NCBI GenBank assembly: GCA_964406345.1
Contig: CAYORK010000001.1
Span: forward strand, 88,183-152,182
DNA from: an uncultured Actinomycetes bacterium
GTDB lineage: Bacteria > Actinomycetota > Actinomycetes > Nanopelagicales > Nanopelagicaceae
Direction of reading: 5' to 3'
DNA length: 64,000 nt
The position numbers and the translations under genes are program-made. Shown here piece by piece: positions 6,279 to 9,510 of this stretch. The first letter of the stretch is position 1. Every line of letters starts with the position of its first letter. The notes under the pieces are model-generated. The model ran no database searches. It was not told the DNA's origin and saw only the letters and a list, made by a program, of their open reading frames with translations.

Positions 6279-8186
6279 CTAACTCAGAGTGATCGTCACG
6301 GTGCTGCCACGCTTGACGCGGTCTCCGACCTTGGGGGAGACATTGGTGACAACCTTGTTCTCTCGCCTGCCAATCGTCTTCGTTTCCACGTTCAATCCGA
6401 GATCGGAGAGAAGTCTCTTGGCTTCGGCGCCCTTAAGAGAGAGGACATTAGGGATGAAGACATACTCCGTTCCCTCTGAGACGGTGAGAACTATCGCGCT
6501 TCCTTTCGGGAGCGGTTGGTCAGCTGCTGGAACTTGCACGATCACAGCACCGAGTGGAACTGTCTCCGAGTATTGATACTGCACGTCGACGTCGAAACCT
6601 GCAGCATTGAGTTCGTTGAGCGCCTGTTCTCCGGACTGACCGACATAACTCTTGACCAGGACCTCCTCGGTGCCTTTGCTGATCACATAATTGACGAGAG
6701 AGTTTCGCTTGACCCGAGCGGAGGCAGTCGGTTCCTGACTCGCGATCAATCCTTTCTCGACATCAGGACTGAATCTCTCGCTCACAGTGCCAACCTGGAG
6801 GTTGCTATCTTCAATCAATTTCTTTGCAGCCTCTGGGGTCAGACCTGCGATGGAAGGAACGGTGTAGCGCTCCTTGCCCTGACTCACGATCAGGTTGACG
6901 GTGCCACCCTCGGACACTCGGCCTCCACCGGCTGGATCACTGCGAAGCACGAGACCCTCTTCGATCACCTCACTGAACTCACGTTCCCCGATCTCGACGG
7001 AGAGCCCTAACGGAGTGAGTCTGTTGGTCGCTTCAACGATGCTCATGCCAGCAACGGAGGGAACGACGACTCGATTGCCCGGTCCAATGAGGAGATACCA
7101 GGCGCCAGTCACGAGAGCGACAAGCATGAGGGCGGCGATGGTGCGATTTCTCTTCACTCGCTTCGAGAGTTTCCGCTTCTTTGGCTTGCTCACCTGATCC
7201 TCATCTCGCATCACTTTGGAATGTTCATTAGCTCTGTTATTAGACGGATTCTCTTCCGCTCGCTTCGGAGAGAGTTCGCTCTTCGCGGCAGGTGGAAGGT
7301 CCAACTCTAGGCTCATCTGTGCACTGCTCTTCGCAGATGGATCCCAGGTCGAAGTGACTGCACGAAGCCTTTCTAGGAATTCACCGGCATCTTTTGGACG
7401 ATCGTCAGGATTGCTCGATGTAGCGAGATAGATGAGATCGTCGAGGGCTGGATCTATTCCGACAAGCAACTGCGAGAGACGAGGAACACGTTCTTTGACG
7501 TGCTTGAGCGCCACCTGAACCGGATCTTCTCCCATGAATGGACGTTCACCCGTCAGGGCTTCGAAGATCACGATCGCTGCCGAGTAGACATCGCTTCGAG
7601 CATCGGTCACGCCGCGTTGAACCTGCTCCGGTGCGAGATAGGAGACGCTGCCAAGCACGACAGAGGCTTCGGCCGTCATCGTCTCACCGATGAGCGAGCC
7701 ACGAGCAAGCCCGAAGTCAGCGATCTTCACTCGACCATCGCGAGCGATCAGAATGTTCTCAGGCTTGATGTCTCGGTGAACGATTCCGAGTCGATGTGCC
7801 GCAGAGAGAGCGTTCAACACTGGCATCATGATCCGCAGCATTGGCTCTAACTCGATTCGACCTTGATGATCCAGATGAGAACGGAAAGTCGAGCCATCGA
7901 TCAGCTCCATGACGATGAAGACGCAGGGCGTCCCTCCCTGATTCCAGCCTTGATCCTGGATGCTGACTATGTTGGGGTGGGAGAGTGCAGCGGCGGCTTT
8001 GGCCTCTCGGATGAAGCGAGAGACGTAGTTCTCATCGTTAGCAAGATGAGGATGCATGATCTTGACGGCGACTTCGCGATCGAGTCGTAGGTCGAGCGCG
8101 GCATAGATGGTTGCCATCCCGCCAGCATCAACGATCCGAGTGAGTTGATATCGACCATCGATCACTTCACCGGTGAGATCAGCCAC
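6279..8186 (-). CDS. Ser/Thr protein kinase with four C-terminal PASTA repeats (PknB/PknL family)
   Basis: 635 aa. Hanks kinase motifs are VAVKIM, HRDIKPENIL, ADFGLA and YLAPEQ. A single TM helix (TIAALMLVALVTGAWYLLIG) is followed by four roughly 65-aa PASTA-like repeats. Confidence 0.9.
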   Translation of the reverse strand: MADLTGEVIDGRYQLTRIVDAGGMATIYAALDLRLDREVAVKIMHPHLANDENYVSRFIREAKAAAALSHPNIVSIQDQGWNQGGTPCVFIVMELIDGSTFRSHLDHQGRIELEPMLRIMMPVLNALSAAHRLGIVHRDIKPENILIARDGRVKIADFGLARGSLIGETMTAEASVVLGSVSYLAPEQVQRGVTDARSDVYSAAIVIFEALTGERPFMGEDPVQVALKHVKERVPRLSQLLVGIDPALDDLIYLATSSNPDDRPKDAGEFLERLRAVTSTWDPSAKSSAQMSLELDLPPAAKSELSPKRAEENPSNNRANEHSKVMRDEDQVSKPKKRKLSKRVKRNRTIAALMLVALVTGAWYLLIGPGNRVVVPSVAGMSIVEATNRLTPLGLSVEIGEREFSEVIEEGLVLRSDPAGGGRVSEGGTVNLIVSQGKERYTVPSIAGLTPEAAKKLIEDSNLQVGTVSERFSPDVEKGLIASQEPTASARVKRNSLVNYVISKGTEEVLVKSYVGQSGEQALNELNAAGFDVDVQYQYSETVPLGAVIVQVPAADQPLPKGSAIVLTVSEGTEYVFIPNVLSLKGAEAKRLLSDLGLNVETKTIGRRENKVVTNVSPKVGDRVKRGSTVTITLS

Positions 8187-8236: not shown

Positions 8237-8839
8237 TCAGACGAAGAGTTCGCCGTCGAAACGCAGATGCGCTGTGTCGAATGTGTTTTCGCGCGCGAAA
8301 TGGAGTAGCTCCTCACCTTGCCAAGAGAGAATGCGACCTCTGTACTGCTCCAGGTCCGTTGCGAAGACGCTATCTCGTCGCATCACTCTCTCTAGACCGC
8401 GAGACGGTGTGATCTCTATCCAGACCATCGTGGTGGCAAATGGTCTGACGATTCGCTGCGACGCTCCCACTCCCTCCAGAATGAGGAAGGGATGTCTCGG
8501 GATGGTGCGGAACTCACCCGCCATGCCCTTATGCCAATCCCAAGCGCGATAGCCACCGCTCCTCCCGAGCCCGATGGGCGTCAAGATCTGATCCCTTAGT
8601 GTTGCCGTGAGTTGCGCAGTGAGAGCGTCATCCCATCCTCGGTAGAGGTCATCCATATGCACGATGGGCGCATCATCGAGAAGCGGCGAGAGGGCATCAG
8701 CGAAGGTGCTCTTGCCACCGCCTGCCCTGCCATCGATGGTTACGACTCGGACATCACCGACAAGAGGCGAGGCCTTCGTGGCATGTTCGAGAGCGAGTGA
8801 TAACGCTTCGCTAAACGGCAGGCGATGGAGTTTGTGCAC
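8237..8839 (-). CDS. P-loop kinase of the uridine-kinase/PRK-like fold, substrate unknown
   Basis: 200 aa. Walker A is GRAGGGKST; HMDDLY and LILEGVG blocks resemble the Udk/Nrk family. The only available start is the GTG at 8839, which overlaps the pnuC 3' end by 29 nt. Confidence 0.6.
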   Translation of the reverse strand: MHKLHRLPFSEALSLALEHATKASPLVGDVRVVTIDGRAGGGKSTFADALSPLLDDAPIVHMDDLYRGWDDALTAQLTATLRDQILTPIGLGRSGGYRAWDWHKGMAGEFRTIPRHPFLILEGVGASQRIVRPFATTMVWIEITPSRGLERVMRRDSVFATDLEQYRGRILSWQGEELLHFARENTFDTAHLRFDGELFV

Positions 8840-9401
8840 GCCGATACCAACGGACCAGACCCAAGATAGCCATTCCGGTGAAGATGAGATAGACGATGGA
8901 AGTGAAGTAACTTCCGCCGAGCCAGAACTGCACCGTCAAGACCACATTGACGACTAACCAAACTAACCAGTTCTCCCACTTCTCCTTGACCATCGCGAAT
9001 TGTGCGAGAGCGCTTCCAAGAAGACCAAGAGTGTCACTCCAGATGTAGACCGCTCCGACAGATTGAAGGTAGGGGGTAAAGGCGATCCAAGCAGCTGCGA
9101 AAGCACCGAGACCGATCGCGCGATATCTCCAGGGAATGCTTGAGGGATCGGCCCCTCGCGGTCCCCAACCGAACCAACCCCAGATGGCGAATGCGATGAA
9201 GATGAACTGGGTGGCCATGCTCGCGAAATACTCGTATTGATAGAACCAGATCGCGTATAGAGAGGAACTGATCACCCACCAGGGCCACATGATGCGCTTT
9301 CCAGTGGTCCCGAGGTAGACCGCGACGAGTGCGGTGGTCGCCGCAAGACCTTCCAAGAGTGTTACGTCATATCCCCAAGCTGTGAAAAGAACTGTGTTCA
9401 T
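8811..9401 (-). CDS. pnuC: PnuC-family vitamin transporter (nicotinamide riboside transporter family; context suggests a thiamine-type PnuT)
   Basis: 196 aa, about 7 TM helices. W-rich PnuC-like blocks include PWWVISSSLYAIWFYQYEYF and IAFAIWGWFGW. Confidence 0.85.
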   Translation of the reverse strand: MNTVLFTAWGYDVTLLEGLAATTALVAVYLGTTGKRIMWPWWVISSSLYAIWFYQYEYFASMATQFIFIAFAIWGWFGWGPRGADPSSIPWRYRAIGLGAFAAAWIAFTPYLQSVGAVYIWSDTLGLLGSALAQFAMVKEKWENWLVWLVVNVVLTVQFWLGGSYFTSIVYLIFTGMAILGLVRWYRRAQTPSPAV

Positions 9402-9500
9402 TTTTCTCTCCCAAAAGTCTGCATTACCAGACTGGTCTTACGGTCGGCCCATTTTGGACCCTCTCAGCCAACTTTTGGCTCCCGTTCTCCGAGAAGGTTA
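9402..9500 (-). promoter_or_regulatory. Candidate TPP (THI-box) riboswitch in the pnuC leader
   Basis: The minus-strand RNA reads ...CCUUCUCGGAGAACGGGAGCCAAAAGUUGGCUGAGAGGGUCCAAAAUGGGCCGACCGUAAGACCAGUCUGGUAAUGCAGACUUUUGGGAGAGAAAAAUG. It aligns by eye to E. coli thiM: GGGAGC plus a P3 hairpin, CUGAGA, ACCG, then ACCAGUCUGGUAAUGCAGAC versus ACCUGAUCUGGAUAAUGCCAGCG, then GGGA. The 5' UUCUC can pair with GAGAA inside the SD. Confidence 0.55.
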
Positions 9501-9510
9501 GCATCCCGAC

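What the first reader, a model, noticed from the sequence alone, without database searches (positions are those of the whole stretch)
8237..9401. PnuC-family transporter translationally coupled to an uncharacterised uridine-kinase-like P-loop kinase (metabolic-trapping pair, substrate ambiguous)
The only usable start of the 200-aa P-loop protein overlaps the last 29 nt of the transporter gene. Its motifs are Walker A GRAGGGKST, HMDDLY and LILEGVG. Pnu transporters are facilitators that need a cytoplasmic kinase to trap substrate (NadR-RNK for NR, thiamine pyrophosphokinase for PnuT). This kinase is neither NadR-like nor TPK-like. Its Udk/Nrk-like fold argues for nicotinamide riboside or another nucleoside, whereas the THI-box-like leader argues for thiamine or a thiamine precursor. 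Either way it is a candidate non-orthologous vitamin salvage kinase.
Basis: inference. Interest (0 to 1): 0.6.

Follow-up and report, generated by a model that had tools for sequence, protein, structure and literature searches.

The report
Candidate thiamine kinase coupled to PnuT
In a tiny freshwater actinobacterium that cannot make vitamin B1, a B1-sensing RNA switch controls a passive vitamin channel whose gene overlaps an uncharacterised small kinase. That kinase is probably the missing enzyme that traps imported thiamine as thiamine monophosphate, but no assay has shown this.

Summary
On the minus strand a PnuC-family gene (9401..8811) overlaps by 29 nt the only P-loop-preserving start (GTG 8839) of a 200-aa kinase (8839..8237). 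A divergent but real TPP riboswitch (9501..9391) precedes the pair.

The substrate question resolves towards thiamine:
- The riboswitch recurs in front of the pair in 27 related loci and shows strong covariation.
- The genome has ThiL, but no ThiC, ThiE, ThiM, ThiD, TPK or ThiK orthologue was found.
- It has NadA, so NAD can be made de novo.
- The same ThiL-only pattern holds across 41 Nanopelagicaceae genomes and in a second family.

The kinase has a uridine-kinase/PanK/PRK-type fold (AF2 pLDDT 95, Z about 17) with intact catalytic residues, and it matches no named family.

Best reading (about 0.55): it is a non-orthologous thiamine kinase, making TMP for ThiL and trapping PnuT-imported thiamine.

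Caveats:
- The operon arose once.
- Homologues in about half of the sampled Actinomycetia have no thiamine context.
- A few relatives keep the kinase without PnuT.
- Rare relatives are fused to a PabB-like enzyme.

The PnuT/THI-element part was published in 2017; I found no paper on the kinase. This scan noted the same operon on another acI genome, and analogous NadR-type modules elsewhere.

The parts
9391..9501 (-). Divergent TPP (THI-box) riboswitch aptamer. The pyrimidine-sensor half is intact (ACGGGAGCC...GGCUGAGA). The P4/P5 region is remodelled and lacks the consensus AU/CG internal loop.
   Evidence: RF00059 match 1-105/105, 33.4 bits, E 8e-4; it is the only TPP-like hit in the genome. 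The same element sits in front of pnuT in 7 of 8 loci and 19 of 20 loci. In a 28-sequence alignment 98.6% of cells are paired, 11 of 20 pairs are compensatory, and the covariation score is 0.432 against 0.10 or less for slid controls.
9404..9414 (-). 3' strand of helix P1 (GGGAGAGAA), which contains the Shine-Dalgarno sequence of pnuT 5-11 nt before the AUG at 9401. This is the expression platform of a translational OFF switch.
   Evidence: Read directly from the minus strand: 5' CCUUCUC (about 9497-9491) can pair with GAGAGAA before the AUG. No terminator-like site was found on this strand. The mechanism is inferred by analogy with E. coli thiM.
8811..9401 (-). pnuT-type Pnu-family facilitator gene (196 aa).
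   Evidence: PF04973 114.9 bits (cut-off 27.3) and TIGR01528 52 bits. It is the only PF04973 gene in the genome. Kang et al. 2017 (PMC5301498) proposed that acI pnuC genes behind a THI element are PnuT.
8811..8839 (-). 29-nt overlap of the pnuT 3' end with the kinase 5' end (translational coupling). There is no clear Shine-Dalgarno sequence before GTG 8839.
   Evidence: The reading frames overlap in all Nanopelagicaceae loci examined and abut within 27 nt or less in the three loci of the second family's clade (L040, L045, L091).
8237..8839 (-). 200-aa P-loop small-molecule kinase of the PRK06547-like, uridine-kinase/PanK/PRK fold. It is the candidate thiamine kinase.
   Evidence: AF2 model pLDDT 95.2, pTM 0.92. 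Foldseek and VIA-align best matches are UCK2, Thermus Udk, 1rz3, PRK and MtPanK, with Z 16-17. The profile search of PDB gives 1rz3 at E 1.4e-13.
8708..8734 (-). Walker A motif, D36-G-R-A-G-G-G-K43-S.
   Evidence: Invariant DGxAGxGK in alignments A1 and A3. Conserved in both the paired and the solo clades.
8642..8659 (-). H61-M-D-D-L-Y66 motif with the putative catalytic Asp. It aligns with the Asp of the Udk 'MDHYYK' segment.
   Evidence: HMMER alignment to Thermus uridine kinase and to 1rz3.
8465..8485 (-). L-I-L-E122-G-V-G strand (Walker-B-like, Mg/ATP site).
   Evidence: E122, G123 and G125 are invariant. They align with the 'ILEG' segment of Udk and 1rz3.

Best explanation
This is a three-part thiamine uptake-and-trap operon.

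1. A TPP-riboswitch derivative masks the pnuT ribosome-binding site when the cell's thiamine/TPP pool is full.
2. PnuT lets external thiamine diffuse in.
3. The overlapping, translationally coupled P-loop kinase phosphorylates the hydroxyethyl group of thiamine with ATP to give thiamine monophosphate (EC 2.7.1.89 chemistry, on a fold unrelated to enterobacterial ThiK).
4. PnuT cannot carry TMP back out, and the genome's ThiL converts it to the cofactor TPP.

Because the kinase has no clear ribosome-binding site of its own, its translation follows that of pnuT. The riboswitch therefore governs both genes.

Shown here: the anatomy, conservation of the triad, the riboswitch structure, the kinase fold and intact catalytic residues, and the pathway gap. 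Inferred: the substrate, the product, and the coupling mechanism.
For: (1) Operon anatomy and conservation.
- PnuT followed by the kinase on one strand occurs in 32 distinct loci.
- They are adjacent in 31 of the 34 Nanopelagicaceae genomes that carry a strong kinase match. The arrangement also occurs in a second family, f60.
- Kinase identity within this clade falls to about 35%.

(2) Thiamine signal.
- The RF00059 element lies directly upstream in the window and in 26 of 28 further loci.
- Its helices are proven by covariation.
- The P1 3' strand is the Shine-Dalgarno sequence.

(3) Pathway hole in the own genome (93% complete).
- ThiL is present at 200 bits.
- No TPK, ThiE (13), ThiM (15) or ThiC (78) was found.
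- The weak Phos_pyr_kin hit is a PfkB sugar kinase.
- The ThiK model scores only 34 bits (cut-off 299) on a generic APH protein beside an acyl-CoA dehydrogenase.
- Across 41 family genomes ThiL is in 41 of 41, TPK in 0 of 41 and strong ThiE in only 7.
- In f60 no ThiE was found and ThiL is present.

(4) The six ThiE-positive genomes of three genera lack the kinase or carry only a stop-containing remnant.

(5) The fold belongs to the hydroxyl-phosphorylating Udk/PanK/PRK group, Z 16-17 against 11.3 for NRK1. The Walker A motif, catalytic Asp, LEG strand and lid arginines are conserved.

(6) NAD de novo synthesis is present (NadA 331 bits), so NR salvage is not required.

(7) Literature.
- Pnu transporters work by facilitated diffusion plus kinase trapping, and PnuT binds neither TMP nor TPP (PMC5749112).
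- acI are thiamine auxotrophs with a THI-element pnuC (PMC5301498).
Against: - There is no biochemical evidence for the substrate.
- All PnuT-coupled kinases form one clade (99/94 support). The linkage therefore reflects one ancient event, and the ThiE anticorrelation rests on about three genera.
- The family occurs in 202 of 401 sampled Actinomycetia. Most are large genomes where the gene lies in a housekeeping backbone (hisG, bPH_6, aldose epimerase, RbpA, TIM) with no thiamine gene or riboswitch nearby.
- Its core residues are the same as in the coupled clade. If those solo enzymes act on something else, so may this one.
- G403, G404 and G411 keep the kinase directly after the carotenoid genes without PnuT or a riboswitch. 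G404 also has ThiE.
- Three relatives are fused to a PabB-like chorismate-binding enzyme, which hints at another pathway.
- ThiL retention could also be explained by recycling or uptake of TMP.
- The generic APH-family protein cannot be excluded as the thiamine kinase.
Confidence: 0.55

Rival explanations
1. The kinase is a housekeeping small-molecule or nucleoside kinase unrelated to thiamine. It ended up behind pnuT once in the ancestor of a genome-streamlined lineage and stayed there because compact operons are hard to break.
For: - The family is in 202 of 401 Actinomycetia genomes with no thiamine context.
- The same core residues occur in the solo and the coupled clades.
- The kinase is retained without PnuT in G403, G404 and G411.
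- The coupling has a single origin.
- PabB-like fusions exist.
Against: - The overlap and order have been kept over divergence to about 35% identity, in two families.
- The kinase has no clear Shine-Dalgarno sequence of its own, so it sits under a thiamine-responsive switch. That would be an odd control for a housekeeping enzyme.
- It is missing from the ThiE-positive genera, although they have larger genomes.
- It matches no housekeeping family: Udk 11.8/180, CoaE 12 bits, Cmk 11 bits.
- This reading leaves the ThiL-only pathway hole unexplained.
Confidence: 0.2
2. The kinase acts in thiamine metabolism but at a different step or on a different substrate. Candidates are TMP to TPP, a thiamine analogue or degradation product carried by the transporter, or HMP or thiazole alcohol.
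For: The riboswitch and PnuT context indicate only 'thiamine-related'. P-loop kinases of the NMP-kinase type do phosphorylate phosphates. Known TPP-riboswitch variants with P4-P5 changes sense thiamin, TMP and TPP alike (PMC5473149).
Against: No ThiE, ThiD, ThiM or ThiC was found, so HMP or thiazole phosphates would have no use. ThiL already covers TMP to TPP. The nearest folds are hydroxyl kinases (Udk, PanK, PRK) and not NMP kinases, with Z 17 against 10-12.
Confidence: 0.12
3. The pair is a classical PnuC plus nicotinamide-riboside kinase module for NAD salvage.
For: The transporter matches the PnuC models (TIGR01528 52 bits). The kinase shares the DDxF/Y and ILEG motifs and a distant fold relationship with human NRK1 (Z 11.3, profile E 1e-5).
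Against: - The only RNA family matched in the leader is TPP; no NAD riboswitch was found.
- NadA is present.
- There is no NadR/AAA_28 match.
- Udk, PanK and PRK are much closer structurally than NRK1.
- acI strains that differ in NAD pathways all carry the THI-element pnuC (PMC5301498).
Confidence: 0.05

Closest known systems
TPP-riboswitch-controlled pnuT-TPK (pnuT-tnr3) thiamine uptake operons (Rodionov et al. 2002 as cited in PMC5749112; Bacteroides thetaiotaomicron PnuT/TPK, PMC5613172)
   Same: A THI element is followed by a Pnu-family facilitator and then a cytoplasmic thiamine-phosphorylating enzyme. The logic is metabolic trapping, and PnuT does not bind TMP or TPP.
   Different: The partner here is a P-loop Udk/PanK-like kinase, not a thiamine pyrophosphokinase. 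No PF04263 match was found in any of 41 family genomes. The predicted product is TMP, which then needs ThiL, and not TPP made in one step.
E. coli ThiK (YcfN) thiamine kinase plus ThiL two-step salvage
   Same: The proposed chemistry is the same: thiamine to TMP by a kinase, then TMP to TPP by ThiL (for the pathway description).
   Different: ThiK has the APH/choline-kinase fold, whereas this protein is a P-loop kinase. The ThiK model finds only a 34-bit generic APH protein in this genome. No homology between the two is implied.
PnuC plus NadR ribosylnicotinamide-kinase domain / eukaryotic Nrk1
   Same: A Pnu facilitator is paired with a P-loop kinase that traps a cationic vitamin riboside. 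The kinase fold is distantly related (NRK1 Z 11.3).
   Different: There is no AAA_28/NadR match. The riboswitch is TPP-type, and the genome has NadA.
Uridine-cytidine kinase / PRK / type I pantothenate kinase structural group, and the uncharacterised 1rz3 (Geobacillus RBSTP0775) and 3c8u proteins
   Same: These are the best structural matches (Z 16-17, rmsd 2.4-2.8 over 167-196 residues). They share the Walker A motif, the Asp after strand 2, the ILEG strand and the lid arginines.
   Different: Sequence identity is 14-21%. The curated Udk, CoaE and Cmk models score far below cut-off. The family-specific motifs (HMDDLYxGW, DW, WQxxE) are absent from Udk.
acI 'PnuC/PnuT with THI element' (Kang et al. 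2017, PMC5301498) and TPP-riboswitch variants mutated in P4-P5 (McCown et al. 2017, PMC5473149)
   Same: It is the same transporter and the same leader in the same lineage. The weak Rfam score fits the described class of variants altered in the pyrophosphate-binding core.
   Different: Neither paper mentions the overlapping kinase. Kang et al. state that nearly all salvage enzymes are missing.

Membership tests
Pnu transporter family (PF04973 / TIGR01528) | Match to the family HMM above the curated cut-off over its full length | tested here: met
   PF04973 114.9 bits against 27.3, positions 2-175 of 175. TIGR01528 52.1 bits against 42.45.
PnuT (thiamine-specific Pnu subgroup) | Control by a TPP riboswitch and co-localisation with a thiamine-phosphorylating enzyme | tested here: met
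   The riboswitch derivative is conserved upstream. A kinase is co-localised, but its substrate is unproven.
PnuT (thiamine-specific Pnu subgroup) | Transport of thiamine, and not of TMP or TPP | not testable with these tools
   This needs uptake or binding assays as in PMC5749112.
TPP riboswitch (Rfam RF00059) | Score at or above the gathering threshold of 54.3 bits | tested here: not met
   33.4 bits in the window and 26.5-43.5 bits in relatives.
TPP riboswitch (Rfam RF00059) | P2/P3 pyrimidine-sensor helix with the CUGAGA junction, and P5 with the conserved loop, supported by covariation | tested here: met
   CUGAGA and GUAAUG are invariant in 28 sequences. 11 of 20 pairs are compensatory and 98.6% of cells are paired.
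TPP riboswitch (Rfam RF00059) | Consensus J4/5-J5/4 internal loop that binds the pyrophosphate | tested here: not met
   The 'AU' and 'CG' consensus positions are deleted or replaced in the cmscan alignments, and the sequence there varies between loci. This is consistent with the variants described in PMC5473149.
Uridine kinase (Udk; NF004018 / PF00485) | Score above the curated cut-off | tested here: not met
   NF004018 scores 11.8 bits against 180. PF00485 is not reported for the window protein at E of 1 or less.
Udk/PRK/PanK structural group of P-loop kinases | Shared fold with Walker A, catalytic Asp after strand 2, ILEG strand and lid Arg | tested here: met
   Z 16.4-17.2 to PRK, MtPanK, 1rz3, Thermus Udk and UCK2. 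Motif alignment is and the invariant residues.
NCBIfam PRK06547 (unnamed 'hypothetical protein' equivalog) | Score above the cut-off of 173 bits | tested here: not met
   106.3 bits over 160 of 172 positions. It is the best hit but below cut-off.
NadR-type ribosylnicotinamide kinase / Nrk | Match to the NadR RNK (AAA_28) domain, or closest structural similarity to Nrk | tested here: not met
   There is no AAA_28 hit at E of 1 or less. NRK1 gives Z 11.3, ranked sixteenth and well below Udk, PanK and PRK.
Thiamine pyrophosphokinase (TPK/ThiN) | TPK_catalytic domain | tested here: not met
   The kinase has a different fold. No PF04263 match was found in the own genome or in 41 family genomes.
ThiK (TIGR02721, APH fold) | APH-type fold and a score above 299 bits | tested here: not met
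   The kinase is a P-loop protein. TIGR02721 hits only a different gene, at 34 bits.
Thiamine kinase activity (EC 2.7.1.89), functional class | ATP-dependent formation of TMP from thiamine | not testable with these tools
   This is inferred from the operon, the riboswitch and the ThiL-only pathway gap.

The most novel reading that the evidence does not exclude
The whole PRK06547-like family, found in about half of the sampled Actinomycetia and sharing one set of pocket residues, is the long-missing actinobacterial thiamine kinase. It would be a P-loop, Udk/PanK-fold enzyme non-orthologous to enterobacterial ThiK. In the acI lineage it has been wired, by gene overlap, to PnuT and to a TPP-riboswitch variant that reads the total thiamine pool and not TPP alone.
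Probability: 0.3. Interest if true: 0.7.

Novelty: new variant of a known kind. Interest (0 to 1): 0.55.

Why it matters
acI/Nanopelagicaceae are among the most abundant freshwater bacteria. They are obligate vitamin B1 auxotrophs, and how they turn imported thiamine into the cofactor has not been explained. They keep ThiL, yet no enzyme known to make its substrate TMP was found.

A P-loop thiamine kinase would close that gap. It would add a third, structurally unrelated solution (after TPK and ThiK) to thiamine salvage. It would also give a function to an unnamed family present in roughly half of the sampled Actinomycetia, and improve B1-auxotrophy predictions from genomes.

The test is simple: one small soluble protein, a kinase assay and E. 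coli complementation.

Tried and rejected
- **Conserved pnuC linkage outside acI.** In large actinobacteria a PnuC-like gene lies 3-12 kb from the kinase. It sits inside an FMN-riboswitch riboflavin operon (PnuX/RibM type). The kinase lies convergently beyond hisG and a PH-domain gene. This is backbone synteny and not a functional link, so I rejected it as evidence.
- **Canonical TPK in Actinomycetia.** The 197 PF04263 hits at class level are 35-residue partial matches in ORFs of about 400 aa. They are not true TPKs and cannot be used for a complementary-distribution test.
- **Sequence search of PDB with the single protein.** Nothing was found. The profile search found only Udk-group proteins.
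- **Fused forms.** None were found with the window protein. The profile found four: three PabB-like fusions and one DNA-glycosylase fusion. The long open frames in high-GC loci carry no extra domains.
- **ESM Atlas.** It returned only unnamed 'uridine kinase family' actinobacterial clusters.
- **Riboswitches near solo kinases.** None were found at gathering score in 40 loci. None appeared at E of 1 or less in the four PnuT-less Nanopelagicaceae loci.
- **Expression.** One freshwater metatranscriptome held only a 267-nt low-depth contig of a relative over part of pnuT. Nothing can be said about co-transcription.
- **Order-level sample.** It contained only the window's family and added nothing independent.
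- **Literature.** Searches for a P-loop or non-ThiK thiamine kinase, or for the acI kinase, found nothing. The library is incomplete, so this is weak evidence of novelty.
- **Not run.** I did not run complex prediction, because no protein-protein binding is claimed.
Full report
**1. What is there**

All the relevant features lie on the minus strand.
- A 196-aa Pnu-family gene runs 9401..8811. PF04973 scores 114.9 bits against a cut-off of 27.3.
- A 200-aa P-loop gene runs 8839..8237 and starts with GTG.
- The transporter ends ...GCC GTT TAG at 8811. The kinase frame opens 29 nt upstream at GTG 8839.
- The next in-frame start codon after 8839 is residue 60, beyond the Walker A motif. Orthologues at 54-99% identity start at the same position.

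**2. The leader**

Rfam gives one match in the 5 kb around the genes. It is a full-length TPP riboswitch at 9501..9391 with 33.4 bits, E 8e-4, below the gathering score of 54.3. It is also the only TPP-like element in the 1.28 Mb genome.

A sub-threshold hit alone would be weak evidence. The same element, however, lies immediately upstream of the orthologous transporter in 7 of 8 loci and in 19 of 20 loci, with scores of 26.5-43.5 bits.

I aligned 28 leaders.
- 98.6% of cells pair in the four predicted helices, against 16-39% when the partners are slid.
- 11 of 20 pairs show compensatory changes.
- The covariation score is 0.432 against 0.10 or less for the slid controls.

ACGGGAGCC, GGCUGAGA and the GUAAUG loop are invariant. 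The P4/P5 internal loop that binds the pyrophosphate in canonical aptamers is deleted or replaced, and it varies between loci. This explains the low score. It also fits the TPP variants mentioned by McCown et al. 2017, which carry P4-P5 mutations and bind thiamin, TMP and TPP about equally (PMC5473149).

The 3' strand of P1 (GGGAGAGAA, 9414-9404) contains the Shine-Dalgarno sequence of pnuT. No terminator was found. The element therefore looks like a translational OFF switch; this step is inferred.

**3. The kinase**
- No Pfam family reaches its cut-off and there is no NadR/AAA_28 hit.
- The best NCBIfam model is PRK06547 'hypothetical protein', 106 bits against 173. Uridine kinase scores 11.8 against 180.
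- With a 22-sequence alignment AlphaFold2 gives a confident model, pLDDT 95.2 and pTM 0.92.
- Foldseek and VIA-align place it in the uridine-kinase/phosphoribulokinase/type-I pantothenate-kinase group. PRK gives Z 17.2, MtPanK 17.0, 3c8u 16.8, 1rz3 16.7, Thermus Udk 16.7 and UCK2 16.4.
- Human NRK1 is much further away at Z 11.3, and NMP kinases give about 10-12.
- A profile search of PDB sequences aligns HMDD with the catalytic-Asp segment of Udk and LILEG with Udk's ILEG.

The protein is thus a catalytically intact hydroxyl-phosphorylating small-molecule kinase that belongs to no named family. The ESM Atlas shows only unnamed actinobacterial clusters.

**4. Is the pairing conserved?**

Yes, within the lineage.
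- Transporter followed by kinase on one strand occurs in 32 distinct loci.
- In a sample of 41 Nanopelagicaceae genomes from 18 genera, 34 have a strong kinase match. In 31 of these the PnuT-type gene is adjacent.
- A second family (f60), which the tool places outside the window's order, has the same pair.
- The frames overlap in all Nanopelagicaceae loci examined. They abut within 27 nt or less in the three loci of the f60 clade (L040, L045, L091).
- In a maximum-likelihood tree all coupled kinases form one clade with 99/94 support. The only 'solo' row inside it (L047) starts at a contig end.

The coupling is ancient and maintained, since identity falls to about 35%. It arose once, however, so the many loci are not independent evidence.

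**5. Outside that clade**

The family is in 202 of 401 sampled genomes of the class. Class-level tallies include a few genomes flagged unpublished (G006, G029, G031, G035, G042). None of the loci cited in this report comes from them.

In large genomes a PnuC-like gene often lies 3-12 kb from the kinase. That gene sits in an FMN-riboswitch riboflavin operon and is of the PnuX/RibM type. The kinase lies in a housekeeping backbone next to hisG, a bPH_6 protein, aldose epimerase, RbpA or TIM. No riboswitch is nearby.

The solo kinases therefore carry no thiamine signal. Their conserved residues are nonetheless the same as in the coupled clade.

**6. Pathway context**

This is the strongest argument for the substrate. 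In the own genome, which is 93% complete:

| Function | Result |
|---|---|
| ThiL | present, 200 bits |
| TPK | not found |
| ThiE | not found |
| ThiM | not found |
| ThiC | not found |
| ThiD | only hit is a PfkB sugar kinase |
| ThiK | 34 bits (cut-off 299) on a generic APH protein beside an acyl-CoA dehydrogenase |
| NadA | present, 331 bits; NR salvage not required |

Across the 41 family genomes ThiL is in 41, TPK in 0, and a strong ThiE in only 7. The two f60 genomes show the same pattern, with no ThiE found and ThiL present.

A streamlined auxotroph that keeps ThiL needs a source of TMP, and phosphorylation of imported thiamine is the obvious one. PnuT works by facilitated diffusion, binds neither TMP nor TPP, and depends on a trapping kinase (PMC5749112).

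Six of the seven ThiE-positive genomes, from three genera, lack the kinase or hold only a stop-containing remnant. This suggests the kinase is dispensable when thiamine phosphate is made de novo. It may reflect only one or a few loss events.

**7. Complications**
- G403, G404 and G411 keep the kinase directly behind the carotenoid genes, with PnuT and the riboswitch cleanly absent. G404 also has ThiE.
- Three metagenomic relatives are N-terminal fusions to a PabB-like chorismate-binding enzyme, with a PabC-like gene nearby. They keep the family motifs. This may be a chance fusion, or a hint that solo members serve another pathway.
- No expression evidence could be obtained.

**8. Comparison and novelty**

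The module works like the known riboswitch-pnuT-TPK operons and like PnuC-NadR. The chemistry proposed is that of E. coli ThiK plus ThiL.

It is not a member of the TPK, ThiK, NadR-RNK or Udk families; each was tested and not met. Kang et al. 2017 already proposed that acI pnuC genes behind a THI element are PnuT. They did not mention the kinase and described the salvage enzymes as nearly all missing. I found no paper describing a P-loop thiamine kinase.

Earlier notes of this scan had flagged the same riboswitch-pnuC-kinase order and the loop-less riboswitch on another acI genome. They had also flagged analogous PnuT operons with NadR-type kinases in other bacteria. Those notes are leads and not evidence.

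**9. Verdict**
- Observation: confirmed.
- Best explanation: a non-orthologous thiamine kinase that feeds ThiL and traps PnuT-imported thiamine, placed under a translational TPP-type riboswitch through gene overlap. Confidence 0.55.
- Novelty: a new variant of a known kind.
- Interest: 0.55. The case is moderately surprising, relevant to a dominant freshwater lineage, and directly testable with a simple enzyme assay.

Noticed in passing
window 9391-9501 (-); relatives L041, L072-L090: The TPP aptamer keeps the pyrimidine-sensor half but lacks the consensus P4/P5 internal loop that binds the pyrophosphate. All copies therefore score 26-44 bits, below Rfam's gathering score. This fits the 'thiamin = TMP = TPP' variants mentioned in McCown et al. 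2017 (PMC5473149).
   Followed up: partly
L094:3398-5584 and L095:1998-4217 (proteins P0122-P0124): Relatives of the kinase (29-32% identity, family motifs kept, HLEDIY in place of HMDDLY) are fused N-terminally to a PabB-like chorismate-binding enzyme. A class-IV aminotransferase (PabC-like) and an ECF transporter module lie nearby.
   Followed up: partly
L035, L036, L038, L039, L042, L043 (large actinobacterial genomes): The PnuC-family gene a few kb from the solo kinase lies inside an FMN-riboswitch operon (88-100 bits), so it is a PnuX/RibM-type riboflavin transporter. The apparent kinase-pnuC proximity there is backbone synteny through hisG and a bPH_6 gene.
   Followed up: yes
L096 (G404:C2), L097 (G403:C2), L098 (G411:C22): Three Nanopelagicaceae genomes keep the kinase directly after the lycopene-cyclase or phytoene-synthase genes, with PnuT and the riboswitch absent. 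In G404 only 58 nt remain between the cyclase and the kinase, and that genome has ThiE.
   Followed up: partly
class-level search: PF04263 (TPK_catalytic) matches in 197 of 401 Actinomycetia genomes cover only model positions 9-44, inside ORFs of about 400 aa. They are not canonical thiamine pyrophosphokinases and may be a different conserved protein with a TPK-like segment.
   Followed up: no
(e.g. G038:C1:747984-748565): Many Nanopelagicaceae carry a second, higher-scoring PnuC-family paralogue (141-164 bits) elsewhere in the genome. It is the only Pnu gene in the ThiE-positive genera. Kang et al. 2017 linked such a paralogue to an FMN riboswitch (PnuX) in one strain.
   Followed up: no
window 6279-8186 (-): A four-PASTA Ser/Thr kinase gene follows the P-loop kinase after a 50-nt gap on the same strand. 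The order PnuT, kinase, PASTA kinase, nfo is kept in Nanopelagicaceae loci (L048, L051, L056, L059, L067-L071) but not in the second family.
   Followed up: partly
G000:C4:49909-50538 (L092:1396-2421): A generic APH-family phosphotransferase (PF01636, 179 bits) lies next to an acyl-CoA dehydrogenase. It is the only weak ThiK-model hit in the genome (34 bits) and cannot be formally excluded as an alternative thiamine kinase.
   Followed up: partly
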